Positions 1,686 through 63,267 of a DNA stretch of 64,000 nucleotides are shown here, one piece after another. This DNA is from Trichoplax sp. H2 (lineage: Eukaryota). Both the position numbers and the translations under genes were made by a program. The notes beneath the pieces were generated by a model. The model was not told the DNA's origin, searched no databases, and worked only from the letters and a program-made list of their open reading frames with translations. The first letter of the stretch is position 1. Each line of letters opens with the position of its first letter. The stretch lies in the NCBI GenBank assembly GCA_003344405.1, contig NOWV01000105.1:186001-250000 (forward strand). The letters run 5' to 3'.

Positions 1686-2771
1686 TCAAACGTTAGTACT
1701 ACGAGAAAACTCATGTAATGTTATTTCTTGAGGATTTCGACATTTGAAACGTAAAATTGATTTAAATGCAGCATTGAAAGGAGGATTGTAGTAATAGCAG
1801 ATAAATATATTAGCTATGCTATGAAAACAAGTTAAATAGTTAGTAAAAATTCGTACGATCAAAATTTTTGATCTGATATGGCAATCGTACTGTTTATACC
1901 TAGCTAGTATATACTTAATTATATTGGTATCGACTAGAAAGACGTAAATCCAATATGGTAACCACACTACTAGGTATGCAAAGAATATAATAACGGACAT
2001 TTTGCGTAATTTTTTTTTCACAAGGTCAATATTTCCATTGCTTCGATGACGCCGTAGGCCATCTGATACATTGCCGTATTTATTGCTTATTACTTGTATT
2101 AAGTCCATTTTTAAATTGTGGATGATTTGAACATTAAGGATAGCTACAGCAATAATAGGTAAAGCATAAGAAATAGAGAATAAGATTAAATCGTAAATGG
2201 CTTGTCTGGCATCTTCTGTCCAGATTGGATTAAGTAAACAGTACGATGAAGTAGCGTAAGTCTTGATATTTAATAAGATGGCATAAGGAATCATGTAGGC
2301 AAAACCTACTGCCCAAATTAAAGCAATAACGTAAATTGCATGCTTAACTTTAAGCTGAGCATGGAGTGGTTTACAAAAGGCTTGAAAGCGAGCATAACAC
2401 ATTGATATTATAGTAAATGCCGATATAATAACGGTAGCAATATAAGCTGAATAAGAAATTTTACATAAAAATTCTCCGAAAGGCCAAGCACCATGATAGA
2501 ATAAATCGGAAATAAATTGTAGTAATCTAGAAAACAGGAACATGATTGTAACAATGCTATAGTTAACCATCATAACATTAGTAAATGTCCATAGTCTTCG
2601 CGTTCGAACAACTATATATCCGATAGCTAAATTGCCCGCAGTTGATGTTATGAAAGTGGATAGAAGTACTATCAATTTCAGTATTTTAACTATACTCCTT
2701 ATCGACTCAAAATTTCCATGGTCGATACAAGTCACATTACCTAGAGTAGAATTATTATTACCAACGAACAT
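1686..2771 (-). CDS. Intronless class A (rhodopsin-like) GPCR, peptide-receptor-like, 361 aa
   Basis: Seven hydrophobic segments; N-terminal N-glycosylation sequons (NNS/NST, NVT); TM1 GN; ECL1 WPFGEFLCK; TM3 end CYARF (DRY position) followed by AFCKP; TM4 W (ALIWAVG); TM5 YALP; TM6 VWLPYW; TM7 HSIANIFICYY; helix 8 FNAAF. Confidence 0.93.
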   Translation of the reverse strand: MFVGNNNSTLGNVTCIDHGNFESIRSIVKILKLIVLLSTFITSTAGNLAIGYIVVRTRRLWTFTNVMMVNYSIVTIMFLFSRLLQFISDLFYHGAWPFGEFLCKISYSAYIATVIISAFTIISMCYARFQAFCKPLHAQLKVKHAIYVIALIWAVGFAYMIPYAILLNIKTYATSSYCLLNPIWTEDARQAIYDLILFSISYALPIIAVAILNVQIIHNLKMDLIQVISNKYGNVSDGLRRHRSNGNIDLVKKKLRKMSVIIFFAYLVVWLPYWIYVFLVDTNIIKYILARYKQYDCHIRSKILIVRIFTNYLTCFHSIANIFICYYYNPPFNAAFKSILRFKCRNPQEITLHEFSRSTNV

Positions 2772-3572
2772 ATTTTTAGTGATGGCGTAAATAGGATCAA
2801 TTATTGTTTATTCAGTCTTTCAGCGTAGTTTATCTCCTAATAGTATTATTTACCACATGTTGTAGCCATAAAGCAGTTATTTTATGACGAGACTTTTGTA
2901 ATATGTTGTAGTGCTGTAGTTTAATAAAATGATCAGTTCTGACTGTTTTAACTCTTATATAGCGTTCACACAAAAGCTGTTGTCCAATACTCCGATGCTA
3001 AACCAAAATGTGTCAATTCGTAAAACATATAATCATAATGGAATTCTACACAAGAAGACAATAGTGTTTAGAATGCGTACTATACAGATCATTTGCATAG
3101 AAACGTACATTTAAATATTTCATATTCGGGATAAATACTACTATAGTTAATTATTTATCTGTTATTGATAGCTAGCTATTTGATGGCAAAGAATACTACC
3201 TACCTACTGTTACTTGGATATACACTTGATGATTTCGAATCCGCCTATTAAATAATTAATAAATTACTCTGCTTATTTATCTATCGTGGATGTTTTACTA
3301 GCGTAATCGAAATAAATAGAGCTGGATGATCCTTTTGTTAGTGTTCTTTACTGTAGAGAAAATAAGATTTACAGTTATCGGAAGTAAGTAATGAAATATT
3401 GTTTATAACTATTTTTCTGGATAATTCTATAAAGCCATCTGAAAAATTTCAAAATGAGTATATTGAATGGAATAGTATCGATAAGTATTAGTTTATTGTA
3501 GTTAATAAGAGATATTGTTTGCTGGAAAATGTAACATTTTTGGGCATACAATGTAGCCTTGTTGTATATAAC

Positions 3573-26548: not shown

Positions 26549-27661
26549 TCATTGACTTGCCAATTTTTGAACTAATTCATCTACATGTATCTTATCGTCG
26601 ACACTTGCTGCTCGATTAAGTATGACTTGCAATACACCAGGGATGGGTATTCTGTTATTGCTGTCGATGATATCAAACGTATTATCAATCATAGCTGATA
26701 ATCCACGAGAAGATTTGTCGCAATATAGATCATCTAGGGATCGATCATAGATGAATAGTAAAGTGTAAAAGTCCGTCAAGGCATCTGGTTTATTGTCCAA
26801 TTCACAATATCGTTTTGGATCTTTAAAGATTTCCTTATATTCATGAACTTGTGGACTAAGCTGCAAGTATGCAGTGTACGGTATATCAAAGCAAGACAGG
26901 CCTAAGTTGTCGCATAAATTCGTTACAGAAGTATGGACCGATAAATCAAGGCATTCTTTAGGCGTCGGAATTAATGATTTAGTTTTACCTGTAGCATAGT
27001 TGAATAACGAAACATGCGTATTCGGTTTAAGGCAACTGTGTGATAAAACTGCGATACCATCGCTTGATAGTAAATCAGAACAGATTTTATCTAGAAGTTC
27101 TTTAAAGCGAGCCTGATCATGATGCGATGATATAAAATAATAACCACAATGCAATAGATATACTAACTTAAAGTCTTTTATACGACGATCTCCAGCTTGT
27201 GAGCCAAGAAGTAATCTCGTAATATTACATTTCATAACATCCGCATGCAAGACACGATAGTTATTTAACGGAATTATTTTAGCTTGCATGGCCTTGTACA
27301 AATTATCTCCAGCTATTCCATTGGTAGAATTCAGTTTTTCGCAATCCTGTTTATGATCAATACTGTCGTTGTCAGTCAATCCAGTATAATCAGGGTTATT
27401 ATCGACAGCGATTAAATCGATACCGGATTGAAATTGGATATTTCGTAGATATTTTACAATTCTATCCCCAGCTCCACAGCAAATGTCAGCTACACGAATA
27501 GGATCGTCCTGATCACAATTTACTAATCCTTTCTCTTTTAAACCGTTGATTAAGGCTTGATGTAATAGGGCTTCTGTTTGTGGTTGATTACTTGCATTTA
27601 TAAAAGCGCTAAACGCTTTGCTGTATTCGAATACATGCGTTTTTATTGTTGTCTTTTCCAT
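26549..27661 (-). CDS. Intronless class I SAM-dependent methyltransferase, histamine N-methyltransferase-like, 370 aa
   Basis: Motif I IRVADICCGAGD; acidic post-I AVDNN; N-terminal YSKAFSAFINASNQ resembles the HNMT 'YxxsFxxFlxxS' helix; FKLVYLLHCGYYF followed by LLSSDGIAVL resembles the HNMT beta4/beta5 region. The family call is from recalled motifs only. Confidence 0.75.
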   Translation of the reverse strand: MEKTTIKTHVFEYSKAFSAFINASNQPQTEALLHQALINGLKEKGLVNCDQDDPIRVADICCGAGDRIVKYLRNIQFQSGIDLIAVDNNPDYTGLTDNDSIDHKQDCEKLNSTNGIAGDNLYKAMQAKIIPLNNYRVLHADVMKCNITRLLLGSQAGDRRIKDFKLVYLLHCGYYFISSHHDQARFKELLDKICSDLLSSDGIAVLSHSCLKPNTHVSLFNYATGKTKSLIPTPKECLDLSVHTSVTNLCDNLGLSCFDIPYTAYLQLSPQVHEYKEIFKDPKRYCELDNKPDALTDFYTLLFIYDRSLDDLYCDKSSRGLSAMIDNTFDIIDSNNRIPIPGVLQVILNRAASVDDKIHVDELVQKLASQ

Positions 27662-28840
27662 CCAGTATAAGGTACTTTCTTCTCCAGAACTTTTACTCTT
27701 TGTCAGTCAGATGTGGGAAAATTCGAAAACTGGCGTATTCTATTGGATAGACTACTCAATTCAAATTAAATGAATAATATTATTTTACACAGCATTGCTC
27801 TCTACCAGTAGTGACGAATCTCACGATTGTGGTAGTGGCGTTGGGTTGATACCTCGCGGAATACCGTAATCCAAGCAGACTCGCTCGCTTAACAGCACAG
27901 TACTGTAGACAATACTGAACGCGAATAACTTCGATGGCAAGATAGCGTGGAAAGTTGCAATTTGTTACCACTCCGATTCAAAATCGATACTTTGGGCTTG
28001 ATTTAGCCTCAACAGTACACAGCTATTCGAAAATTGAAAGTTGCAATTTGTTACCACTCCGATTCAAAATCGATACTTTGGGCTTGATTTAGCCTCAACA
28101 GTACACAGCTTATTTTCCTTAGTGCCACCCAAGTTCATCGCGATGTACTGTATACTACTGAGTCTAGATCGTAACGGTTCGATCCGAACCGAACCGAACC
28201 TTCTCAGGTCTAGACTACTGACCACGGCAAATACTGTACAGTAAGTATACTGTACTGTACCAGTGTGCAGTTCTGGATTTGGGTCTGGATCACACAACGG
28301 AAAGAGAGTGCGTAGTTACTCGCAGACGGGAACGTGCTTCCGCTGTAGAAAATGTCTTGCTGCCATCCACTTAGGCTAAGTCTATGTTCATATTGCTATA
28401 CGGTATGGGGCCAGAAAGTGAATGAATACCTTTATTGTACTGTACTAATCGATGGTTTGTTGTTTGCTTGCAGAATGAAAATAAAATAAAGTCTTATTTG
28501 CACTAACAGTACTCATTGCAGATGCAATATTGGAGTTGCCCACTATACACGCTTGCTACCCAATCGTATTCTTAGCGATCAGGCATGAGTAATTACTATA
28601 CTGTAGAATTGGCAACTTGAACGAGGGCTATTGCGCACGCTCTTTCCTTCCGTTCCCGATTTGACTCCATGCTTACTTCGACAAGCTTTCCCATGGACAG
28701 TACTCAGTACTGTAAAGTACCGTACTGTACTGTAAACTGTACACTGTACAAGCGGTCCATGCGATTGCGTCACTCCTTGGCTTGACTTTGAAAATATTGG
28801 CAATGGCAAAACAACGCTGGAATTCAATCATTTTGATGTT
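27662..28840. promoter_or_regulatory. Putative divergent promoter region between the methyltransferase and P450 paralog B
   Basis: Head-to-head start codons at 27661 (-) and 28841 (+); visibly more GC/CpG-rich than flanks; dense TACTGTA/CAGTAC motifs. Confidence 0.45.
27950..28110. repeat. 75-bp identical direct repeat (27950-28024, 28036-28110)
   Basis: gaaagttgcaatttgttaccactccgattcaaaatcgatactttgggcttgatttagcctcaacagtacacagct occurs twice with an 11-bp spacer. Confidence 0.92.
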
Positions 28841-34449: not shown

Positions 34450-37400
34450 TCAAGGTGACACTGGTGAAACGATAAGTTTCAAAGGCGGATATGGCCGCAT
34501 TGTAATATGCAACTTTCTCTCAATCTGTTGGTTAGGATAAGGTTGGAAAGAAAAATTACTTAATAATAACGATAAGATACACTTCATTTCCGTTAGTGCA
34601 AATTTAGAGCCGATGCAAATTCGCGGCCCTCTAAGAAATGGCATGTATGCGTATGGACTGGTATTCTTGGCTGAGTTATCCCATCTATCCGGATTAAACT
34701 TTAAAGGTTCTTCAAAGTACTTTGAACTCCTAAATATAATATTCATGGTAGCAAAGAAATTTTTTAGTAACAGCCATGCTTTCAACATGTAGACAATTAT
34801 AGTTTTGACATTTACCATCATTCAATTTGTAATATGCACGAAGATATTTATTTCAATATAAGCTTCGAATACAATGATAAAATAAAATTACATGAAGTTC
34901 TTTCACGTGCAAGAATAACTTGCTTTAAGCTCGCTTTACTCTTGCTACGCTTGAGTTACCTATGAGGAGCTAAAATTGCAATTGTAGTTCCTTTGGGGAT
35001 AAAATATTTTCCTAACTTATCATCTGCTGTCGCTTCTCGAAAGGTCAGTGGCGCAGGTGGATATAGTCTAAAAATCAAATATAGATAGTTACTTAGAGAG
35101 TAAAAAGTACATAGAAGAAATAAGGAATTACTCAAAAGACTTTATTGTCAAAATATTAGCAATCAAAGACCGCTCAATAAACAATTTGTAGATATTGTTA
35201 TAGCAGATTAATAACCTAAGGGACTCTTTAATAACGTTCTCAAGGAACGGTAATTCGTCGAAAGTACTCCATGTTATATTATCACTTGGTTGTATAACCT
35301 TACAAATTTCTTTACGCACTTTCTCTTGAAGTTCAGGGTTGCTAGCCAATGCATATAATGTCCAAGTTAATGCCACACTTGTAGTCTAGAACAGATATCA
35401 TATTTATTATATTATAAAACTTTAAGGAACTCTCGTTAAGTAAAAGACTCCATAGCTCATTTTTTCAATTTAATAACGGCAGTATAATTGTATACTTCAT
35501 AAATTGTAATCTTACGTTAAGCGACAGTCCTAACCTCATGACCAGCAGCCATAAAAGTCATAATTTGATCCTGTAATTCTTTACCAGTAAAGCTAGGATT
35601 ATTTTCTTCATCTTTTAGCGAGAGTAAAATATCTAGCAAGCATTTTTCTTCATCTACAACAATATTTAACCATTTTTTAATAGTATTTATCTAAAATTAT
35701 TAAACAATCATTATAATACTAACGTTTTAATATAATATTCAATTTCAGATTAAAATAATAAAATAGTTTGCATACCAATAGGCCCCTTCTCTAATTTTTG
35801 GTTAATTACTTTCTTGACAGTACTATGACAAATAGATAAAGCACGACTTCTTTCTCTATTGCTAGATGTAGGTAAATATTTAAAGCCTGGTACCAAATAT
35901 GTCCAACTAAAGAGTTTAAAATTAAAAATTGCTAGGTATTTAATGAACTTATTACTAAAATATGTGTAATACACGATACGTAAGGTAAATACAAATGCAA
36001 ATACATTACGAGACCAACATTTTAGCAGACAATTTCTTCTTCAATTATTATTATGATATAATTTTCCAAGATACGCTTATCAAATACTTACTTTAAAGTA
36101 AGGCCTCCAATAATCTTCCTGAAGGCAACCGATACCTGATTGTTCTCATTTGTTAATGAATTACAATCGTAATCAAATGCACATTTGCATATGATATCTA
36201 GGGTGATTCGAGCAAAGTCTTGATGTACATTCAACGTAGCTTTTTGGTCACCGCGCTCGTCGATTTCATTTTGCCAGTAATTTACCAAGAGTTGGGCAAA
36301 ATTTTGAAATACTGGTGCCATCTCTGGTGTAACAAACAGAAAATTAGCCGATGCGATCTATTACAGGTAAGGAGATATTACACATGAGATAAGATGTAGA
36401 ATAGTATATTTCTATACGTTACTCAAATCTAATGTAATATGCAGCTACTGTCCAATTTAAGATTTTGAAATGAATAATATATTTTAGACATCTTTAACTC
36501 GCAATGACTAAGAGATAGCATCGAGTTGGTTTGCTGTTAAGTATCTACCCTAAAATAGATATTTTACCTTTAATTTTATTATATTTAAATGTTGGATTAA
36601 TGATTTTCCGAACTTTAGCATGCTTTTGCCCTTCAAGCAAAAGCAATCCTTCACCAATAAGATCTCCTAAGAAACTGAAATGAAATCCTGAGAGTTATCA
36701 CTATACTATCATGCTATTTTAATTTTGTATGATAATTTCTAAGCTGAATAAAAGACAAGATGCCGACAACAAGCATACAAAGTTATAACTTACGCCTTGG
36801 TGCGTAAAGGTTTACGATATTTAGTACACTGCGTCACCAGGACATGCTTGATATACTCTGGATCAGTAATGGCGACCCGTTGGGAATAAATCGGAAAGCA
36901 GTAACGAACGATGCCCCCGTGTTGTTCGCTCCATCTACAAGTAAGATAAAAGAGAAAAGCTAATTTCAGCAAGTATTTAGTACTAGAGAGAAACGAAGCA
37001 ACTACTTATTCTCATTCACAAATTTACGAAATTAGCATAAGACTCTTTGGATGTAGCTTGTATAGTAGACTAAACATTAACTTTACAATCATCTATGATT
37101 TTATAGAAGGATTGATAAATATATTTCTTGACAAAGGGAAATTGATGATGATATTCATAGGATATTATCTCAAGTAAGTAGAATAGATGTTGAGGTCACG
37201 TAAAAATACGATGTACACAAACTTGTATCTTGTTTTATATTTAGAAACTGTTGAATACTAACTGTAAATAAGGATCGCCAGGTGGTTCTTTCATAATAAT
37301 GAGTAAATGCCCCAATGGCGACCATGTTGGTAGTCCAGGAATCTAAAACGATGATTTACGAGTTTATCATATCAACAAACGAGGTAAACGACTATCAATT

Positions 37401-53225: not shown

Positions 53226-53879
53226 CTAATCAAATTTGAAAGCTGGATTTAGTCTTGACTGCTACTTTTGCAATTACTGCTGTTATTTTGCTGCCACTAA
53301 TTGAACAAGTGGATAAGATTCAACACATAATTTTATTTTACCTGTAGTGTAATAGGAAAGTATATTCGAGCTATTAATCATAAGTAGTAAAAGCAGTGAC
53401 AAGTTGTTACAAGTCTAGCCAATAAATTCATGACTTATAGTAACCTGGAGAGACATGATGCATTCTTAATTTACGTTCAGGTTGACAATGCTTAGGCCGA
53501 AGCCAAGTTATTACTTTTATTGAGCCAAGATAGAAGCACAACAAACGCTCTATTAATAAAAGTGCTATACTAATCTAATTCAATACCTGTATAATAGAGT
53601 ACGCGTAGGTATTTCGATAAAACTACCGTATAGCGTATCCTAATCAAATTTGAAAGCAGGTTTTAGCCTTGTCTGCTAACGTTGCTAATGAGCCAACAAG
53701 TGGGTAATAATACAAGCAATATTATTGCCAACAAATAATACTATTGTTCCTTTAGCTTAAGGGGAAAGTATTTTCAGATTATAAACTATAAGATGTAGAC
53801 GTAATCCCAAGTCATCAGAAGTCCAATGAAAAAAATCAAGGCGTTATGATATCCTGGAGATACATGATGCATTCCTAAT
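53226..53879. repeat. Diverged direct duplication of about 245 bp (53226-53470, 53640-53879)
   Basis: Shared ctaatcaaatttgaaagc, aacaagtgg and cctggaga.acatgatgcattc.taat at about 410-bp offset. Confidence 0.7.
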
Positions 53880-54922
53880 CCAATGTATCCATCGACATCA
53901 AGTAGTTATCTGACACTTTGACGTGCATACGAGTCGTATTGCAAGTTGACTCAATTCAATCAGACAGTGAACTGCAGTAGTATAGAGTATTTCCCGAAGT
54001 CAAGTTTATAATTGGGTAAATATCAAGTTACAACTCAAATGTCAAGTTAAGGTTTAACACCTTGGATTGTAAGAGCTATTATATATTTACTAGCTATGGC
54101 AGCCTAAATCGATAGATCAATGTATACTTCTACACGTTACTGCGCTTACGTTGCTGACACAACTGCATACAAGTACGCTAATGCTAGACTATCCAATATT
54201 CAAGTTAAAAGATACACTTCAAAATTAAACAAATACTACTACAGTAAAGAGTACATCGAAGCACCATGACTTCTATTAATTTGTTATTACGCAGAAATTA
54301 CGGACATAAGGCAAATGAATCATATTTTTAAATTACAATAGCTGTTTCTGCTTCTTAGTTAGCGGCTTTATACAATACTATGCCATTCTTGTTATAAAAA
54401 ATCAAATGAAGTTAAATTTCGAACTATTTATACATCATGTAATACTTCAACATTTCACGTCTAATGGCGATAAAACTGCAACATAGAAAATATAGCCATT
54501 CTAGTTTATTGATTATTGTAAGCAAGCCAACAAGAAATTAAATTAGGACTATCGATCAATTAAAAATTTTTTAATTTTTAGTATTTAATTGACATTTTTA
54601 ATACTATAGTATAACGCTGTGTAAAACTGACAACCATCTATAAAATTAAGAATGTTAATCCAAATTACTATTAGTTTGCTGGGAAGTTTAAAGTCTACTT
54701 GTAAAATTATCGTAAGCTGAAAAGTAAATAAGCTTGTATTGTATTCCCTGTTTTTGAAGGGTTATCTGTTAGGATAGTTAAATTAATTTAGAAGAGTAAT
54801 TTAAGAAGGTAAAGGCATTCTATAATAATTTTGTCTTGGCGCATATTTTATAAGTTCAATTTAAATGTACGATAAATTATAAGCTGTATTGAAGATGGCT
54901 TTGAGGATAGGCTGTTTGCACT

Positions 54923-57900
54923 CTAGAAATTTTGTTCGTTGTTTTCTGACAGAATGATGTCATTCCTACCAATAGTTTGCAAAGCCCGCTGCAATCGGCT
55001 AATGCTAACATTGGGATGTGCCTTTTTGTACCAGTAATTGAGCAATTCCATTGCCTGGTTAAAGACATGGTCGCGATTTTGTTCCATTATAACCTTAACA
55101 CAAATCGTTGGATCTAGGATGGCCGCTAACTGTGGCCAGTCTGTGCCAATAGAGCTTGCAATAGGGTAAAAATACTTCCTAGGATCTACATAGTACAAGT
55201 AGAAACTTTACTATGAAGTACTATACGAGTATGTTGTAACAATTTCAATTGCAAATAAATTACTTGATTTTACATGATATAAAGTACAATATTTACATAA
55301 TGAGCTCTTATGTCGCAATTAGAGTTGAATAATCATCTGGTTCGCTATAATTATTTATGTAATGGTAATAATGGCATTAGCGATAGCACAGGTGGAACTG
55401 TACTTCTATTGTAAGACTAATAGAAATAAATGGCTCTAATTCGAATTTGAATAACTCTGTAAACGAACTACTTACTGGACAAACAATGTACAAATAAATT
55501 AAGATTGAATATTTTTTAATTCATAAATCATTATTTATTATGTCAAGTAGCTTACTAGTAGCTAGAATATTCTAATGACGATCTTAAAAATTCGTCAGTG
55601 ATATCATTATCTAGTAAAACTGTATGCGATCATATCATCAGTGGCAAACGTAGCTTAAAGAATTACATCCATTGACGAGGTAAGGTATTCCTATGTTAGA
55701 ATTTACAAGGAGTAATTGCTCTTAATCATATTTGAATCGATCTACAATTGGATTACTAAATGCAATTGAGAATGATTGATAGATATCAATTCAATAGAGG
55801 TTTACCTTCATCTTTGGTATCTTTCCATCGGTCTAAAGTAGTGGAATAAAAATAGCAATAATCGATTAATAGTTCTATCGTTTAAGTAATCAATGCAGTA
55901 GATTAGTGCCCATAATTTTTGATAATAATCAACTATTGTTTACGCTATTACAAAATCACCTTACATTAAATAGTAAAATAGCTATGATACAGTACATTTA
56001 TGTCTCTTTGCTTGCTCTAGCGTATGACTTTAGTTTATTATATCATAAAAAGTGATAATATAAGAATGAAGCTGCTGTTTATTCTCACATGCTTACCTAT
56101 CAAGAATTTTTCATTATAAATAATCCAATCGTTTAAAGATTGACTGGCAAATTCCATCTTACAATGCTTACATCGAATCCAATTTTGATCTTCTTCCTTG
56201 TATTCTTCAGTTATACTTGTTTGTGTATTACATTCACTACATTTGACGAAATATCGACAATCGGCCCCTTTAAACTTAACCATCCTATCATTGACAGTAG
56301 AGATGAGTTTATTCTTGACAATTTCGTGTGGCCGTTTGACAAATATAGAATTTGTAACTTTATCGATAATCGATTGACTCCTCTCGGGCTCATTTATTTT
56401 CTGATAGCAATATTGTAAACCAATATGAGATTCCTCTTTCTTGACTACAAGATAATGATTGTCATTTGCTAAATAATATTTGGCACATTGATAGTATAAT
56501 TCTACGTCCGTATTATTCCATTCCTTTAAACATGAAGATAACAAGCAATAATAAATTCCATCTGGAAGATATGGAATATCTGTATGCTCGTATCCGATGT
56601 AGAGCCAATCTGATTGATGATATTTTGATAAATCAAATGGCTTAACATCATATCGTAACAAATATGGAACAAAGTATTGACATTCTTCGCCGTTGTCGTT
56701 CTTCTCATTTGTAATTGAACATAGAATATCATAAGCATGCATGAGTGCCAATATAGTTTGCTTACTATTGTCATCTAAATTAAATTTATAAATAGCATGA
56801 TCAATGTATGATCTTGATAATTTTCCTCTTTGGCTTGCTATCTCATAGTCACGTTTTATCTGTGCACCTCCTTGTACAAAATCTTGTAATTGAATAATAG
56901 AACGAAATATATTTAATAACCAATCGACATTAGTTATAATAATTCCGTCGTCGCCTACTTTATCACAGTAGATGACTTCTCCTAAATCGTGTAGATACAT
57001 TAGCATAGCGATTAATTCATCATGGTTTTCATATAATCCGTATTGTTGAGACAAGTTTACTATTTGTTGCATTGTCATAATATTATGCACTTGAGAATGT
57101 CTAATTTGATTGATAATAGAAGATGCGGGTTGATTGTTACTGTTAGTAGGGAGCGATTTATTTAATATTCTAGCCATGATATACCATCGAATAGGTATAG
57201 GATTCGTAATAAATGGCAGCGATTGTACAAATGCCTTAATGATACCATGTAAACGAAGACAACATTGTCGACGCTGCTCTAGTGTCGACGGAGTACTATC
57301 AAGAGGATTGCAATTAAAAATAATACCAGAAGAATAGATATGATTGGCATAAGAAGGCATGCGAGACGTCAATGTAGACACAAATTGATTGAATCGAGTA
57401 CGTCCATTTTCTTCATTGATAATACAATCGCCATGAGAAGCTACTAAAATAATAATAGGTAATGAATGCTGTGAAGGTGGTAAATGCTGTTCATCTTCAC
57501 TTTTAATGTTGACATTGATGGTACTTTGGCTTGTATGGCCAGCTATGATTGATGTAAGCCATTCTTGCATAGCTTGTAAATACGTCGTTTTGAGTAATTG
57601 GTTGTTCCTTGTTGTTACCTTGTCGTTAATGTCTTGATTAATATTAAATACTAAAATATAAATACTATTGACGGAGATAAAGGGATAATGAGTAAGATGA
57701 TAGACGGCATGACCTGCGAAATCCCATATTTTAACATACTGATTGTTTTCGTCTTTGTCTGCATTTTGATTTTCTATTGGATCTATGTCGGTTACTTGCT
57801 GACTGATGTTATCTTGACTATTGATACTTGTTTGGGCTAACTGTTGTATGACTGTCTTGACTTTATCGTCTAGTATTTCAGTCCAATCACAACCCTCTAA

Positions 57901-60320
57901 GTTACGAATATTATAATATTCGGTCTCTACCATAATATCCAAATTCTCAGCCACTTGTGTCGGAGATGGATTGTCTAGTGGTTGCTTGGTAAATATTTTT
58001 CGAACAGAAGTTTTGCCCACATTGCGAGGACCAATGAACATGCCTCGTATTAAATGATTAAAGCAATGACCATGTTTTAATGCTTTGCTATATGCATTGT
58101 AATATTTCTTTTCTTGCAAAGCTGTAGAACAACAAAATACAGAATAGGGTTACGGTTATCCATCGCTCTCTCGTCTACTACTGTATTAAAACTCCAATTA
58201 CCTTTCTCTTGTACGTGTTGATTGTTATGACTGCCGTCAATAGTATTTGCTGGCGCTGTAACGTTGTTGATTTGATTCGGTTGAAACCGTTCAACGGTAC
58301 TTTTGATCCAATTTCTCGCTGTTGATGTCGACGATTTCGGCTTCCGGAGAGTGATATCGATATTCTTTTTGGTCCATTTAACTAGGCGATCATTTCCGCT
58401 TAAGGTTGCGATATACAGTGACTTCTTAAAGTTATCCACAGCCTGATCGTACTTGCCTTGGCGACGATAGACAAGTCCTATGTTGTTATATGACTTCGCA
58501 ACGTGGGGATGATTGTGACCAAGGACTGACAATCGAATTTGCAGTGATTTGTCATACATATCCACAGCCTGATCGTACTTGCCTTGGCTTTTATAGACAT
58601 TGCCTATGTTGTTATATGAGTTGGCAACATCAGGATGATTATGACCAAGGACTGACAATCGAATTTGCAGTGATTTGTCATACATATCCACAGCCTGATC
58701 GTACTTGCCATGGTGACGATAGACAACTCCTATGTCGTTATATGAGTTGGCAACATCAGGATGATTATAATCAAGGACAGCCAATCCAATTTGCAGTGAC
58801 TTGTGATACATATCCACAGCCTGATCGTACTTGCCTTGGCTTTTATAGACATTGCCTATGTTGTTATATGAGTTGGCAACATCAGGATGATTGTGACCAA
58901 GAACTGACAATCGAATTTGCAGAGATTTGTCATAAATATCCACAGCCTGATCGTACTTGCCTTGGTCATCATAGACAAGTCCTATGTTGTTATATGAGTT
59001 GGCAACATCAGGATGATTATGACCAAGGACAGCCAATCCAATTTGCAGTGATTTGTCATACATATCCACAGCCTGATCGTACTTGCCTTGGCTTTTATAG
59101 ACATTGCCTATTTTGTTATATGAGCTGGCAACATCAGGATGATTGTGACCATGGACTGCCAATCCAATTTGCAGTGATTTGTCATACATATCCACAGCCT
59201 GATCGTACTTGCGTTGGCTTTTATAGACATTGCCTATGTTTTTATATGACTTCACAACATCAGGATGATTGTGACCAAGGACTGACAATCCAATTTGTAG
59301 TGACTTGTCATACATATCCACAGCCTGATCGTACTTGCCTTGGTCATGATAAACAAGTCCTATGTTGTAATATGAGTTGGCAACATGGGGATGATTGTGA
59401 CCAAGGACTGCCAATCCAATTTGCAGTGACTTGTGCAACATATCCACAGCCTGATCGTACTTGCCTTGGTGACGATAGATAACTCCTATGTTGTTATATG
59501 AATTGGCAACATCAGGATGATTGTGACCAAGAACTGCCAATCGAATTTGCAGCGACTTGTCATACATATCCACAGCCTGATCGTACTTGCACAAGCGATC
59601 ATAGACAACTCCTATGTTATTGTATGACCACGCAACATCGGGATGATTATGACCTAGGACTGACAATCGAATTTGCAGCGACTTATCATACATATCCATA
59701 GCCTGATCGATCTTGGCTTGGTCATGATAGACAATTCCTATGTTGTTATATGACTTCGCAACATGGGGATGATTGTGACCAAGAACTGACAATCCAATTT
59801 GCAGTGACTTGTTATGCATATCCACAGCCTGTTCGTACTTGCACAAGTCCCAGTAGACGCACCCAATTTGATGATAACTATCGGCAAGACGAGCATCCTT
59901 TTCGTCTAACCATTTTAATTTCATTTCCAACGATTTCTTACCGTCTTCCAGTGCTCCGTTGAAATCCCCTTGGCGTCTCTTAATCTCGCTTTCTCTTTGT
60001 AAACATTGAGCCATGCTCACTTCATCTTGCAGTTTAGTAGCCACAGTTTGTCCCTTATCACTCCATTCAACAGCTTCCTTGAATTGATATTGTAAAGTGT
60101 AAATGTCACAAAGACCAAGATAAATATCACATGCAAGTCGATCAATATCCGCACTAGGATTCGACAACGAAGCAATCGCATCGACAGCTTGTGTATAACA
60201 AGATAGTCCGTCCACCAACTGGAAGGCAGTCTTGCATGAGATGCCCTTTTCGTACAGTGATTGTATACGGGTATGGTGAGGAAGCACACTCGTAGAACAG
60301 ACAGATTCATCATCAGCCAT
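54923..60320 (-). CDS. TPR-repeat ROCO protein: TPR array, Roc GTPase, COR, CxxC..CxxC, Death domain (about 1480 aa)
   Basis: Exon 60320-58202 joins exon 58121-56097 in frame across an 80-nt GT-AG intron (EK|ALQEKKYY). Roc motifs: P-loop GPRNVGKTS, G3 IWDFAG, G4 VASHGD. COR: PIPIRW, LHDLGEVIY, WLLNIF. CSEC..CKHC. Probable phase-1 microexons 56016-55996 and 55832-55806. Terminal exon 55185-54923 is a Death domain (IGTDWPQLAAIL..QAMELLNYW..LQRALQTIGRNDI). Confidence 0.85.
58410..59885 (-). repeat. Intragenic tandem array of 126-bp (42-aa) TPR units, 11 complete plus 1 partial
   Basis: Consensus ANSYNNIGxVYxxQGKYDQAVDMYDKSLQI(G/R)L(A/S)VLGHNHP(D/H)V; unit starts are exactly 126 nt apart, from 59885 to 58499. 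Confidence 0.97.
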
Positions 60321-63267
60321 CTTTTCCTGCACTCAATTCAAAAATATGTTAGTTAAAGGCTTGAACGACAGGTTAGAGACAAATAAGATTCAAATCAAGC
60401 TTCGTTGCAACCATTAATTGCTAATCATCGGATCGATATTATCTCTGCGTATTAATGAGGTTATGTCGGAATAGTTGTACTTGCGTGCCAGTCGTAGTTC
60501 AACAGAACAACATCAATTATTCCATTATACACAATTTTCAAGCATCAATAAATCAACTTCTACAATATTGCCTATCTATTCCGCATGGAAGATTATCCGA
60601 AAATCATTCAATCAATCTCTGTAGATAATTACTGAAGACAACGCTATCGGACAATCGTGTGCTTACGTGTACATTAACAAAATGCACTCCAGCTTACAAA
60701 TAGATTATACTCATAATCATAATAACCATCAAACAACAATCTTTTTATTCTAATAGACAACGGTAAATAAATGCTAGCCACATCAATGATAGTGTAAAAT
60801 AAGAAAGGATGCTTGCAATACAGTTTCGTTGGCGTCGTTTACCTATCTTTAATTTCTATTTTTACTTGAAATACAATGTATAATGATGGATACCTAACGA
60901 AATAGGTTACTTACCAATGGATGTTTTAAAAATCGGCTAATAACAACTTGATGATTTTGCTGTTACGTAGATTTAATCCTACCAATCCGACTGCGCGCTG
61001 CTTATTGCAACAGGAGCTAATGGATAAAAAGAGAACGACAGGTGACATAAAACTCTACTCGGCTAAACAGCTCTATCCAACTGCATATACACTAAATACA
61101 CGCACTGATCAGCACATCTAAATACTACAGTGTATCAGCGATTACAGACTACTAACTCATTGGTTATTTCCTAACTATAAAAACTCCTTGCAAAGTCCTG
61201 CACGAGGAAGGGCACTATTGGTAACCATGAAGCTTGCTTGCTAGAAATCCCAGTTAAACCTGCGGCTATGACACGCTTTTATTCGTAAGTAGTCCCTATG
61301 TGGATGATGCGATAGCCGACGGATAAAGGTAAATAAATAAAATGAAGGTAAGGTAAATAAATAAATTAGGTTTCTTTGCAATGATTTGTGCATAGTCATA
61401 AGACCTTATGAAATTAGAACAGCTCTAATTTGTATTAGTTTATTAAATACGAGTTTAAGATTAACCTACGAGTATCTTCCCTACCGAATTTCTTATGTCT
61501 TGTTAGCTTAGTAAGCCGTCAATCATATTATTTGCTAAAGTTTGATGCCAATGAACTATTGCATGGGTAGATACAAGTTACCAACAAAATATCGTTCTCT
61601 CTAAGTAAGGATAGTTGACATATTATCCTTATCCATTTTCTTCTATTACAGTCTATCAATAAAGCTATCATTTTATCAACAATTTGATTGCAGTCTACCG
61701 TACGCTATTTATTGTCGTGGCTCCGCAGTCTGTGTTCATTGCAATTCAATTTGATAATGAGCTTGTTACTGCCATATAAAACTCTCAAATTATCAACTAT
61801 GAAATTCATCAAGTAATAACTTAAAGGAGCGACTGTTCAGGATAGGTTTCTGATAGTAAACTGCAAGAAAGAATAGCGATGAATATTATATAACATACTG
61901 TAGAGACATAGAGAAATGATAGCAGTCTATTTCAATATACATCATTGACATTATCCGATCCATTGAATCTACTGTAGCTCAACAAAGAATGCCATAAATT
62001 TAATAAAAGATATTGCTTGTAACAAATATTATCATTTTGTATACAACGTTCGTAGTCCGATGATGAATTAATGATAGACATTTGCATGGTCAAATTGTAA
62101 GCCATACTAATAAAGATTGTACAATCGCAATCATGAATTTTTTAGACTAACCAGATACATCAACAACGGATTACAACATTGGATATGCAATAAAACGGAT
62201 CAATCACTTGACTGATCAGCAGTAGCATATTCTACTTTAATTGGCAACAGCCATCCAATACAGGCATTGCTGTACAACAAGGCACTATCCTCTCAGCACT
62301 TACGCTCGCTGCATTCTCGCGCCAAAGAAGCTTCTTAGTCAACAAGTTCAGCTTCGATCCATGCTCACAGAACTCATTCTCAAGGATAGGTAATCATTTC
62401 TACGAGCATATCTCAACAGTTTTCAACAAACAAGAAGTATTTTATGATCGGTATTGTGTATGAACTAACTAGAGTTGATACTCCAACCGTATGTAAAGTT
62501 CGGATCACTCTGACTAGTTTTCGAATACTGACAAAGCTAAGTCCTTACTACCACTCATTCGTTTATTGATAATTACAACGGCTTTTATATGTGCGCCGTC
62601 AACACTTACAGTGTAACGTTGTACAATACATAGTTTATGATATCCATATCTAGAATTAGGTAGACTTGTAAATTGTAAATTAGTCACGATAATTGATTCT
62701 ATAATTATACAGCGTAAGTTAACTATCAATATGGACTGTAGATAATAACGCAGTTATCATCCATCCATCTTAAGCGTAGCATTACAAAATACATATATAG
62801 AAATACTGTAAGACATATCAATCGGAATAGAGTAAAGTAAGATCAAATTAAAATCTCCTGACAGGGTTGGCGTGAGTACTGTTTGGCCTGATTGCAAATT
62901 GCATGCTATCGATACAAGATGTAACCCTTCATACATACTGGAAGTACTGCAATCCATAGCAATTCCATATGATTACTACCTTAATTTTATTCAATAATTA
63001 ACAATCAATGAGTTGTTAATATACACCATTTAAAGAAAATTTTTAGTATACTTTTATAAACTGTTTGACAAATGACAGTAAAAAATCAACGGAATACAGT
63101 AGCGCACGATGAAGATGATATCAAGCGATTCAGCAGATGGCTTAGTTATTGGACTCATCGTCGATGATGATCGCCAATTAAACAGTGGCCAACAGTAATT
63201 TCTGCTATCGGAAGAACAATCTTCATATTAATTCAAGGAGGCTAAAAGATGTAACATAAAAAGAATC

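What the first reader, a model, noticed from the sequence alone, without database searches (positions are those of the whole stretch)
54923..60320. Three ORF-track fragments form one NLR-like TPR-Roc-COR-Death receptor
Seen: an 80-nt intron (58122-58201) fuses the TPR ORF in frame to the Roc-COR ORF, and phase-1 splicing can carry the frame into a terminal Death-domain exon. Established: Roc-COR is the GTPase/dimerisation module of LRRK2 and DAPK1, and repeat sensor + NTPase switch + death-fold effector is the logic of NLRs and Apaf-1. TPR-bearing ROCO genes have, as I recall, been noted in placozoan gene catalogues but not functionally explained. Inference: a kinase-less innate-immune or cell-death receptor that uses a GTPase switch instead of a NACHT/NB-ARC ATPase, with the sensor at the N-terminus.
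Basis: partly seen in the sequence, partly recalled or inferred. Interest (0 to 1): 0.85.

Follow-up and report, generated by a model that had tools for sequence, protein, structure and literature searches.

The report
Placozoan TPR-Roc-COR-Death GTPase gene
This is a real gene of the simple animal Trichoplax that joins a fast-changing repeat "sensor", an LRRK2-type GTPase switch and a death-domain adaptor; it is already in the databases under a misleading name, and its likely role in cell-death or immune sensing has never been tested.

Summary
The three minus-strand ORFs belong to one gene. It has four coding exons, not three. A 27-nt micro-exon (55806-55832) lies between the COR and Death exons. 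My model translates exactly to GenBank RDD40336.1 of Trichoplax sp. H2 (1477 aa, mis-named "Nephrocystin-3").

Spliced RNA contigs support the 80-nt intron and both junctions of the micro-exon. These contigs come from a related strain or a near paralog.

Pfam, an AlphaFold model and Foldseek confirm the order TPR, Roc, COR, Death, with intact GTPase motifs and no kinase or NACHT. A conserved CxxC..CxxC element follows COR.

The gene belongs to a placozoan expansion catalogued in 2014 (PMC4104024). The design "repeats + AP-GTPase/COR + variable effector" is already in print for bacteria (PMC8195603). This scan also noted bacterial Roco designs on other DNA.

New support for a sensor role:
- TPR arrays diverge far faster than the rest of the protein among near paralogs.
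- The variable sites fall at concave-face positions 2, 9, 12 and 13.
- The terminal Death or CARD-like module is swapped between family members.
- The nearest non-placozoan relatives carry caspase, Bcl-2, DED, TIR or CARD domains.

The function is untested.

The parts
60915..61016 (-). 5' UTR exon (102 nt). It has no ATG and carries an in-frame stop. A further upstream exon starts at about 61157.
   Evidence: Joints 60325/6->60914/5 (X9 2 contigs, X15 1 contig) and 61016->61157 (X9 1 contig). Sequence printed.
58202..60326 (-). Exon 1 of the coding region. The acceptor is at about 60326 and the ATG at 60320-60318. It encodes an N-terminal helical cap, the TPR array and a linker (residues 1-706 plus the first base of codon 707).
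   Evidence: Identical to P0001.
58380..59891 (-). TPR array of twelve 42-residue (126-nt) units of the kinesin-light-chain/TPR_12 type (residues 144-647). The ten central units are 81-95% identical to each other in DNA; the first and last units are more divergent.
58122..58201 (-). Intron 1, 80 nt, GT..AG, phase 1.
   Evidence: Spliced contigs in X9 and X15.
56097..58121 (-). Exon 2, encoding Roc GTPase, COR-A, COR-B and a CxxC..CxxC element.
   Evidence: Pfam. AlphaFold model with pLDDT 83.4 and pTM 0.85. Foldseek ranks 1-34 are all Roco proteins.
57310..58068 (-). Roc GTPase domain (approximate limits). P-loop GPRNVGKT at 58009-58032, then DFAG and SHGD motifs. A disordered insert lies between switch I and DxxG.
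56395..57291 (-). COR-A plus COR-B (approximate limits).
   Evidence: COR-A Pfam hit. 630-730 aligned columns to LRRK1, LRRK2 and CtRoco.
56146..56259 (-). Zinc-ribbon-like CxxC..CxxC element directly after COR-B.
   Evidence: Weak Pfam zinc-ribbon/IBR hits, E 0.03-0.08, below cut-offs. The four Cys are kept in 36, 32, 36 and 31 of 38 aligned relatives. Four short strands in the model.
55833..56096 (-). Intron 2, 264 nt, GT..AG, phase 1.
   Evidence: Joint 55832->56097 in X15, 2 contigs..
55806..55832 (-). 27-nt micro-exon (peptide DRWKDTKDE with the flanking split codons).
   Evidence: The (D/E)RW start is kept in paralogs.
55186..55805 (-). Intron 3, 620 nt, GT..AG, phase 1.
   Evidence: X15 loose ends at 55806 and 55191 match the opposite exon ends..
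54923..55185 (-). Last coding exon: Death domain (Pfam match about 54953-55180) and TAG stop at 54923-54925. The 3' UTR runs at least to about 54749.
   Evidence: Nearest solved relative is the ankyrin-1 death domain, E 7.2e-5. X15 contig covers 54749-55191.

Best explanation
The locus is one intact gene of Trichoplax sp. H2 with four coding exons. Its introns are shown spliced in RNA of a related strain or a near paralog. It encodes a 1477-residue kinase-less ROCO protein in this order: helical cap, twelve 42-residue TPR units, linker, Roc GTPase, COR-A/COR-B, a Cys4 zinc-ribbon-like element, a 9-residue micro-exon linker and a C-terminal Death domain.

It is one copy of a young, still expanding placozoan family.

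Most likely mechanism (inferred): the concave groove of the TPR array binds a peptide-like ligand. This is coupled to the nucleotide state and to the COR-mediated dimer or oligomer state of the Roc-COR switch, as known for Roco proteins. The resulting clustering of the Death domain recruits death-fold partners (adaptors, caspases) to start cell-death or inflammatory signalling. On this reading it is a GTPase-switched counterpart of an NLR or Apaf-1, and is architecturally DAPK1 without its kinase.

Shown here: gene structure, domains, fold, intact G motifs, the pattern of TPR diversification, end-module swapping and the domain company kept by relatives.

Inferred: ligand binding, GTP control, oligomerisation, downstream partners and biological role.
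For: Gene model: it equals P0001/RDD40336.1 exactly. Splice joints appear in spliced contigs of X9 and X15.

Domains: Pfam TPR_12, Roc, COR-A and Death all score above their cut-offs. The model has pLDDT 83.4. Foldseek ranks 1-34 are all LRRK1, LRRK2, C. tepidum Roco or M. barkeri Roco2, best E 2.6e-17.

G motifs in 38 aligned relatives: the P-loop Gly, Gly, Lys and Thr/Ser positions carry G 26, G 26, K 27 and T/S 28 of the 31 rows not gapped there; D of DxxG 32/38 and its G 30/38; H and D of [ST]HxD 31/38 each.

Sensor-like TPR: against the three nearest paralogs, the cap is 93-94% identical, Roc 90-91% and COR 92-96%, but the TPR array only 64-74%. A motif count gives 12, 15, 8 and 5 units in the four proteins. 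In 31 distinct units the four most variable columns map to TPR positions 9, 2, 12 and 13, and positions 6 and 5 are in the top eight (register). These are the concave ligand-binding positions (PMC1261162). Fungal NLR TPRs show the same pattern (PMC4986451).

Effector modularity: P0002 is 91% identical through the Cys4 element and micro-exon, but its Death domain is only 26% identical. Among stored family members the end module is Death type 1 in 9, Death type 2 in 4 and CARD-like in 7. The CARD call is just under Pfam's cut-off, 22.6 and 21.9 bits against 23.9.

Company kept: 7 of the non-placozoan hits were scanned. They are Bcl-2+Roc+COR+caspase, ANK+Roc+COR+Death, Roc-COR-kinase-ZU5, Neuralized-Roc-COR-Death-TIR, DED-Macro-Roc-COR-Death, Ras-Roc-COR-CARD_2, and a double-Roc protein.
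Against: No functional datum exists for any member of the family.

The RNA contigs differ from the window by about 1.4-3.7%. One of them carries about 166 extra nt at 57773/4, which near paralogs also have. Expression of this exact copy is therefore not proven.

High repeat identity and differing unit counts could reflect recent duplication, unequal crossing-over or assembly and gene-model errors in repeats, without any selection.

My pN/pS contrast (2.16 against 0.27) is circular, because the columns were chosen for being variable.

The Death domain's nearest solved relative is the ankyrin death domain. FADD, MyD88 and PIDD match only at E 0.07-0.17.

Kinesin-light-chain-type TPRs also serve ordinary cargo binding.

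The Roc and COR-A Pfam scores are modest (about 42-43 bits). By sequence, only the Roc segment around the DxxG motif (query residues 89-167) matches solved Roco proteins.
Confidence: 0.6

Rival explanations
1. It is an ordinary, non-immune signalling scaffold. The kinesin-light-chain-type TPR array binds cargo or cytoskeletal partners, and the Roc-COR GTPase regulates trafficking or the cytoskeleton, as LRRK proteins do. The Death domain would be a structural interaction module, as in ankyrins.
For: The TPR units are of the KLC/NPHP3 type (TPR_12, TPR_NPHP3). The Death domain is closest to the ankyrin-1 death domain, E 7.2e-5. The Roc-COR fold is closest to LRRK1 and LRRK2.
Against: Lineage-specific expansion with fast TPR turnover and swapped Death or CARD-like ends is not what housekeeping scaffolds show. 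The nearest outside relatives carry caspase, Bcl-2, DED, TIR and CARD domains.
Confidence: 0.2
2. It works as a self/non-self (allorecognition) or endosymbiont-monitoring receptor rather than a pathogen sensor, analogous to the fungal HET-type NLRs whose repeats evolve in the same way.
For: High internal repeat conservation, differing unit numbers and variable concave-face sites form the pattern described for fungal NLR TPR, ANK and WD repeats, some of which control incompatibility (PMC4986451). That placozoans harbour intracellular bacteria is recalled, not checked here.
Against: No population data are available. The comparison here is between paralogs, not alleles. Nothing links the gene to fusion or to symbionts.
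Confidence: 0.12
3. This particular copy is a redundant, decaying duplicate whose open frame is only recently inherited. The spliced RNA seen would come from sister copies.
For: At least three copies with 84-94% identity to the Roc-COR exon exist in the same genome. The window copy lacks about 56 residues of the Roc insert that they carry. All laid contigs near the junctions differ from the window.
Against: The frame stays open across 1477 codons and four exons, with canonical splice sites. All G motifs and all four Cys are intact. The missing segment lies in a loop that the model predicts as disordered, pLDDT <50 at residues 104-122.
Confidence: 0.06

Closest known systems
Trichoplax ROCO gene family as catalogued by Civiero et al. 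2014 (PMC4104024), and the deposited protein RDD40336.1 'Nephrocystin-3'
   Same: The window gene is this deposited protein (100% identity). The review lists at least 17 ROCO genes in T. adhaerens, with ROC-COR flanked by TPR, LRR, CARD, death and AAA domains.
   Different: I saw only the text and the figure legend, not the figure. The review gives no gene structure, no repeat analysis and no immune reading. The database name comes from the TPR part only.
DAPK1 (death-associated protein kinase 1)
   Same: The order is repeats, then Roc-COR, then a C-terminal Death domain. It is a ROCO protein linked to cell death (architecture recalled; PMC8195603 calls AP-GTPase proteins homologs of DAP kinase).
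   Different: There is no kinase or calmodulin-regulated part. TPR units replace ankyrin repeats. A Cys4 element sits after COR. No solved DAPK1 Roc-COR was available for comparison.
Invertebrate death-fold ROCO proteins (e.g. P0062 Glandiceps ANK-Roc-COR-Death; P0072 DED-Macro-Roc-COR-Death; P0061 Owenia Bcl-2-Roc-COR-caspase; Aplysia ROCO-TIR/MyD88-like, PMC9334734)
   Same: They are the nearest non-placozoan relatives of this Roc-COR (E 1.8e-25 to about 1e-19). They are fused to apoptosis or immunity modules. The Cys pairs after COR are kept in the aligned relatives.
   Different: They carry other sensor or partner domains, with no TPR array in the 7 scanned. Identity is only about 23-30%.
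Bacterial AP-GTPase (Roc)-COR conflict systems (Kaur et al. 2021, PMC8195603; 2020, PMC7159879)
   Same: N-terminal fast-evolving repeats, then a Roc-COR switch, then a variable C-terminal effector or adaptor (passages). The polarity is the same as here.
   Different: The bacterial proteins mostly use LRRs and enzymatic effectors (TIR, caspase, GT4 and others). They are predicted, not tested. Here the end module is a metazoan Death domain.
NLR / Apaf-1 (STAND) receptors, including placozoan NB-ARC-TPR/WD40 proteins (Kamm et al. 2019, PMC6321704) and fungal NLRs with internally conserved TPRs (PMC4986451)
   Same: They share the three-part logic of repeats, NTPase switch and death-fold domain. 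TPR units with high internal identity and variable concave-face sites occur in both.
   Different: There is no NACHT or NB-ARC. The switch is a Ras-like GTPase with COR. The domain order is reversed, with repeats N-terminal and the death fold C-terminal.
Brown-algal LRR-ROCO candidate immune receptors; red-algal TPR-ROCO-TIR (Teng et al. 2024, PMC11378527)
   Same: ROCO proteins proposed as immune receptors, with modular exons and exon shuffling. TPR-ROCO-TIR is noted in Chondrus.
   Different: In the algae each LRR has its own exon. Here the whole TPR array lies in one exon, and only the terminal death-fold module is a separate, swappable exon.

Membership tests
ROCO (Roc-COR) proteins | Ras-like Roc GTPase domain with P-loop, DxxG and a G4-type motif | tested here: met
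   Pfam Roc 42.3 bits against cut-off 27. LRRK2 Roc E 7.4e-5. GPRNVGKT, DFAG and SHGD are present and conserved in relatives.
ROCO (Roc-COR) proteins | COR domain directly C-terminal of Roc (COR-A plus COR-B) | tested here: met
   COR-A 43.2 bits against cut-off 35.3. The model aligns over 630-730 columns to LRRK1, LRRK2 and CtRoco Roc-COR, and ranks 1-34 are all Roco proteins. No Pfam COR-B hit was obtained for the window protein itself.
ROCO (Roc-COR) proteins | GTP binding and hydrolysis, and COR-mediated dimerisation | not testable with these tools
   This needs biochemistry. Two copies of the 693-residue unit exceed the size limit of the complex predictor.
NLR / STAND receptors | Central NACHT or NB-ARC STAND ATPase | tested here: not met
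   No NACHT or NB-ARC family at E<=0.1 in any of the three ORFs. The 1477 residues are accounted for by other domains.
NLR / STAND receptors | Repeat sensor plus death-fold signalling domain in the same chain | tested here: met
   TPR_12 array and Death domain.
DAPK1-type ROCO | N-terminal Ser/Thr kinase and ankyrin repeats | tested here: not met
   No Pkinase or Ank hit.
DAPK1-type ROCO | Roc-COR followed by a C-terminal Death domain | tested here: met
AP-GTPase conflict-system design (Kaur et al. 2021) | Rapidly evolving N-terminal repeats, a conserved GTPase-COR core and a variable C-terminal module | tested here: met
   TPR array 64-74% identical against Roc and COR 90-96% among near paralogs, with differing unit counts. 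End modules are Death type 1, Death type 2 or CARD-like. The comparison is between paralogs, not alleles.
Nephrocystin-3 (the deposited name) | NPHP3-type TPR domain | tested here: met
   TPR_NPHP3 365.6 bits against cut-off 100. This covers the TPR part only. That NPHP3 has no Roc-COR or Death is recalled, not tested, so I treat the name as a best-hit artefact.

The most novel reading that the evidence does not exclude
The placozoan TPR-Roc-COR-Death/CARD genes are the animal's own, rapidly diversifying repertoire of intracellular non-self receptors. This would be a second receptor class, switched by a GTPase, working beside the NB-ARC/NACHT proteins. Their TPR grooves would be diversified by repeat shuffling, as in fungal NLRs, and their death-fold output exons would be exchanged between copies. 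The Cys4 element after COR would be a conserved, undescribed part of the switch, shared with other invertebrate death-fold ROCOs and possibly with bacterial ones.
Probability: 0.3. Interest if true: 0.65.

Novelty: already known. Interest (0 to 1): 0.38.

Why it matters
Placozoans lack LRR-bearing NLRs, RIG-I-like receptors and cGAS-STING (PMC6321704, passages). How they sense intracellular trouble is therefore open.

That survey screened only for NACHT and NB-ARC and contains no occurrence of 'Roc' or 'GTPase'. The ROCO family is thus missing from the published placozoan immune inventory.

If these proteins are GTPase-switched death-fold receptors, three things follow:
- They would show that animals, like bacteria, use Roc-COR as an alternative to STAND ATPases in cell-death and immune switches.
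- They would give a simple kinase-free system for studying how Roc-COR couples repeats to an output, which is relevant to LRRK2 and DAPK1.
- The database name 'Nephrocystin-3' would mislead automated annotation.

Tried and rejected
Whole-genome paralog count: no genome is held for this window. Family size therefore rests on protein databases and on the literature figure of at least 17.

First homolog search: it failed on a frame slip and was repeated in frame.

Runs X1 and X4: they cover all 30 bins including introns and show no joints, so I treat them as DNA-like and draw no RNA conclusion from them. Depths were not used to rank anything.

CHAT domain: a UniRef name gives it for the T. adhaerens relative P0160. 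My Pfam scan at E<=0.1 did not find it, so I do not use it.

Internal extra Death domain in P0009-P0011: I saw it by eye. Only P0009 gave a weak phmmer hit, E 4e-3, so it is left as a note.

pN/pS on hypervariable columns: kept only as a consistency check, because the columns were picked by variability.

Earlier notes of this scan: none for this genome.

PMC11747439 held nothing relevant.

No complex prediction was run. The Roc-COR dimer exceeds the size limit, and a Death-domain self-complex would not have moved my odds.


Full report
OBSERVATION

The minus strand of 54923-60332 holds three long stop-to-stop frames of 751, 703 and 94 codons. The window is 29-41% G+C.

Pfam assigns the domains as follows:
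- The first frame is a TPR_12 array (E 1.2e-212, 12 stretches).
- The second carries Roc (42.3 bits, cut-off 27) and COR-A (43.2 bits, cut-off 35.3).
- The third carries a Death domain (40.2 bits, cut-off 22.6).
- No kinase, NACHT or NB-ARC family appears at E<=0.1.

GENE MODEL

I laid the contigs of four public runs on 53500-62000. Runs X1 and X4 cover every bin, introns included, and show no joints. I treat them as DNA-like. Runs X9 (guessed RNA) and X15 (RNA on record) come from two different studies and show spliced contigs:
- 58121->58202: X9 1 contig, X15 1 contig.
- 55832->56097: X15 2 contigs.
- 60325/6->60914/5: X9 2 contigs, X15 1 contig.
- 61016->61157: X9 1 contig.

The X15 loose ends at 55806 and at 55191 match the start of the Death exon and the end of a short exon, respectively. 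It is then joined to a 27-nt micro-exon (55806-55832), and only after that to 55185.

The direct joint 56097/55185 was seen in 0 of the 4 runs. It would still be in frame and give 1468 aa.

The four-exon model (60320-58202, 58121-56097, 55832-55806, 55185-54923) is 4434 nt including the stop codon (4431 nt of coding sequence). It translates letter for letter into P0001, which is GenBank RDD40336.1, 'Nephrocystin-3' of Trichoplax sp. H2, 1477 aa.

The 102-nt upstream exon has no ATG and carries an in-frame stop, so the ATG at 60320 is the start.

CAVEAT ON THE RNA

The spliced contigs differ from the window by about 1.4-3.7% (table 8). One of them, X15 record 13, carries about 166 extra letters at 57773/4. 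A loose end at that place in run X9 reads as the segment that the sister copy P0016 has there (P0163 and P0002 carry close variants of it) and that the window copy lacks.

All four runs read G at 55168, which gives His as in P0163 instead of Tyr.

The RNA therefore comes from another strain or from a near-identical paralog. It proves that these introns are used in this gene lineage. It does not strictly prove this for the window's own copy.

PROTEIN ANATOMY

An AlphaFold model of the 693-residue exon-2 product scored mean pLDDT 83.4 and pTM 0.85. The alignment held the query plus 37 relatives. I picked these from the 150 listed hits for being Roc-COR-sized (585-917 aa).

In Foldseek against the PDB, 63 matches had E<=0.001. 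Ranks 1-34 are all Roco proteins: LRRK1 8e05 (E 2.6e-17), LRRK2, C. tepidum Roco and M. barkeri Roco2. They align over 630-730 columns, which covers Roc, COR-A and COR-B. Small GTPases follow lower down.

By sequence alone, only the Roc segment around the DxxG motif (query residues 89-167) matches solved Roco proteins, with LRRK2 at E 7.4e-5.

The G motifs are intact and conserved. In the 38-row alignment:
- The P-loop Gly, Gly, Lys and Thr/Ser positions carry G 26, G 26, K 27 and T/S 28 of the 31 rows not gapped there.
- Asp of DxxG is kept in 32 of 38 rows and its Gly in 30 of 38.
- His and Asp of [ST]HxD are each kept in 31 of 38 rows.

A loop between switch I and DxxG is predicted disordered (residues 104-122, pLDDT <50). 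This is where the copies differ in length.

Directly after COR-B lies a CxxC..CxxC element. Its four Cys are kept in 36, 32, 36 and 31 of 38 rows. The model shows four short strands there. Pfam gives only sub-threshold zinc-ribbon and IBR hits, E 0.03-0.08. I did not search the literature specifically for this element. Kaur et al. 2021 has no occurrence of 'zinc ribbon'.

The Death domain's nearest solved relative is the ankyrin-1 death domain (E 7.2e-5). MyD88, FADD and PIDD follow at E 0.07-0.17.

THE FAMILY

An exhaustive HMMER search with exon 2 found 808 cluster representatives at E<=1e-3, 195 at E<=1e-10 and 50 at E<=1e-30. I looked up 20 of them:
- The 16 with E<=1e-37 were Trichoplax sp. 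H2 or T. adhaerens (12) or unnamed ENA records (4).
- The 4 weaker ones (E 1.8e-25 to 3.2e-17) came from an annelid, a hemichordate, a brittle star and amphioxus.

Among long proteins, 12 of the 14 hits were placozoan TPR-Roc-COR proteins, most with Death.

The H2 genome itself holds very close copies on other contigs. By identity to the exon-2 product these are P0163 (RDD38977.1; its cluster representative P0015 is 94%), P0016 (92%, partial) and P0002 (84%).

SIGNS OF A SENSOR

The twelve TPR units are 42 residues (126 nt) each. The ten central units are 81-95% identical to each other in DNA.

Region-by-region identity of the window protein against P0163, P0016 and P0002 is as follows:
- N-terminal cap: 93-94%.
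- Roc: 90-91%.
- COR: 92-96%.
- TPR array: only 74%, 67% and 64%.

A motif count gives 12, 15, 8 and 5 units in the window protein, P0163, P0016 and P0002.

I pooled 31 distinct units from these four proteins. The four most variable columns (entropy 2.0-2.4 bits) are unit positions 11, 4, 14 and 15. In the register of the Pfam TPR_1 match, these are TPR positions 9, 2, 12 and 13. Positions 6 and 5 are also in the top eight.

Magliery and Regan report positions 2, 5, 9, 12, 13, 33 and 34 as the most variable in TPRs. They lie on the concave face, and positions 2, 5, 6, 9, 12 and 13 contact the ligand in HOP (PMC1261162, passages).

Dyrka et al. describe the same combination for fungal NLR TPRs: high internal identity, repeat-number polymorphism and variable concave-face sites (PMC4986451, passages).

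My pN/pS contrast (2.16 at six variable columns, 0.27 elsewhere, with similar pS of 0.19 and 0.21) agrees with this. It is circular, however, because the columns were chosen for variability.

MODULAR OUTPUT

P0002 is 91% identical to the window protein through the Cys4 element and the micro-exon. Its terminal Death domain is only 26% identical. The last exon, bounded by a phase-1 intron, has therefore been exchanged between young copies.

Among stored family members, phmmer finds Death type 1 in 9, Death type 2 in 4 and a CARD-like end in 7. Pfam scores the CARD-like ends at 22.6 and 21.9 bits, just under the cut-off of 23.9.

COMPANY KEPT BY RELATIVES

I scanned seven non-placozoan hits:
- Bcl-2 + Roc + COR + caspase (Owenia).
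- ANK + Roc + COR + Death (Glandiceps).
- Roc-COR-A-COR-B-kinase-ZU5 (Amphiura).
- Neuralized-Roc-COR-Death-TIR_2.
- DED-Macro-Roc-COR-Death.
- Ras-Roc-COR-CARD_2.
- A double-Roc protein.

Precomputed Pfam lists add a coral protein with Roc, NACHT and COR, and a crinoid protein with Death, Roc, TIR_2, COR and Neuralized.

This clade of Roc-COR is thus habitually wired to apoptosis and immunity modules.

WHAT IS ALREADY KNOWN

- Civiero et al. 2014 state that at least 17 ROCO genes exist in T. adhaerens, with ROC-COR flanked by CARD and death domains, TPR and LRR repeats and AAA domains (PMC4104024, passages and legends; the figure itself was not seen).
- Teng et al. 2024 repeat this. They call brown-algal LRR-ROCOs candidate immune receptors and note TPR-ROCO-TIR in a red alga (PMC11378527).
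- Kaur et al. 2020 and 2021 list AP-GTPases beside STAND NTPases as apoptotic switches coupled to LRR, WD or TPR repeats. They describe bacterial AP-GTPase-COR proteins with fast-evolving N-terminal repeats and at least 24 alternative C-terminal effector or adaptor domains (PMC8195603 and PMC7159879, passages).
- An Aplysia survey notes ROCO domains in TIR and MyD88-like proteins (PMC9334734).
- The placozoan immunity survey screened only for NACHT and NB-ARC (42 genes) and has no occurrence of 'Roc' or 'GTPase' (PMC6321704, passages; supplements not seen).

My searches were 100 papers with at least 2 of the 3 terms, 20 listed; 35 papers, 15 listed; 66 papers, 15 listed. None of the listed papers treats the placozoan TPR-Roc-COR-Death genes as immune receptors or analyses their repeats. 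Unlisted papers and subscription journals were not checked.

Two earlier notes of this scan describe bacterial Roco proteins of the same design. One of them has a zinc ribbon after Roc-COR. I did not check these notes.

VERDICT

It is neither new in concept nor tested. By membership the protein is a ROCO, not an NLR (no STAND ATPase) and not a DAPK1 orthologue (no kinase, no ankyrin repeats). By design it works like the AP-GTPase conflict-system layout and like a kinase-free DAPK1.

I rate the gene and its architecture as already known. The added value lies in four points:
- The corrected splice model with its evidence.
- The Cys4 element.
- The fungal-NLR-like pattern of TPR diversification.
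- The exchanged death-fold exon.

I put 0.6 on the sensor/cell-death switch reading.

Noticed in passing
window 58430-59482 (+): A 350-codon open frame runs antisense to the TPR array, and many 41-codon frames lie in the third frame. This looks like a by-product of the 126-nt periodic repeat rather than a gene.
   Followed up: no
window 57773/57774: Relative to the sister copies P0016, P0163 and P0002, and to contigs in all four runs, the window copy lacks about 166 nt (about 56 residues) in the disordered Roc insert.
   Followed up: partly
window 55186-55593: A contig in run X9 (depth 9.9) joins 55297 to 55185 (skipping 111 nt, GT..AG on the minus strand) and runs on through intron 3 to 55593. 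In the Death frame, the upstream part is closed by a stop at about 55319-55321 and has no ATG. It is probably a minor or unproductive splice form.
   Followed up: partly
window 60326-61300: Two introns in the 5' UTR (588 nt and 140 nt) are supported by spliced contigs. A further joint, 60487->60915, has non-canonical ends and appears in X9 only.
   Followed up: partly
P0163 (RDD38977.1), residues about 540-590: The sister copy has the array-end and linker segment duplicated in the middle of its TPR array, followed by more units. This is either unequal recombination or an assembly or gene-model artefact.
   Followed up: no
P0061 (Owenia fusiformis, CAH1786849.1): This single protein carries Bcl-2 family, Roc, COR-A and caspase (Peptidase_C14, E 2.1e-60) domains. 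It is a striking all-in-one apoptosis fusion, if the gene model is right.
   Followed up: no
window 1686-2807 (-): A 373-codon intronless frame looks by eye like a rhodopsin-type seven-helix receptor. It was not scanned.
   Followed up: no
window 26549-27706 (-) and 34450-34821 (-): The first is a 385-codon frame with a glycine-rich motif that looks like a SAM-dependent methyltransferase. The second is a 123-codon frame with a cytochrome-P450-like Cys-ligand motif. Both were judged by eye only.
   Followed up: no
P0015 (RDD35795.1, partial): This partial model repeats the segment around the Cys4 element twice in tandem. It sits on a 2.2-kb contig and is probably an assembly or model artefact.
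   Followed up: no
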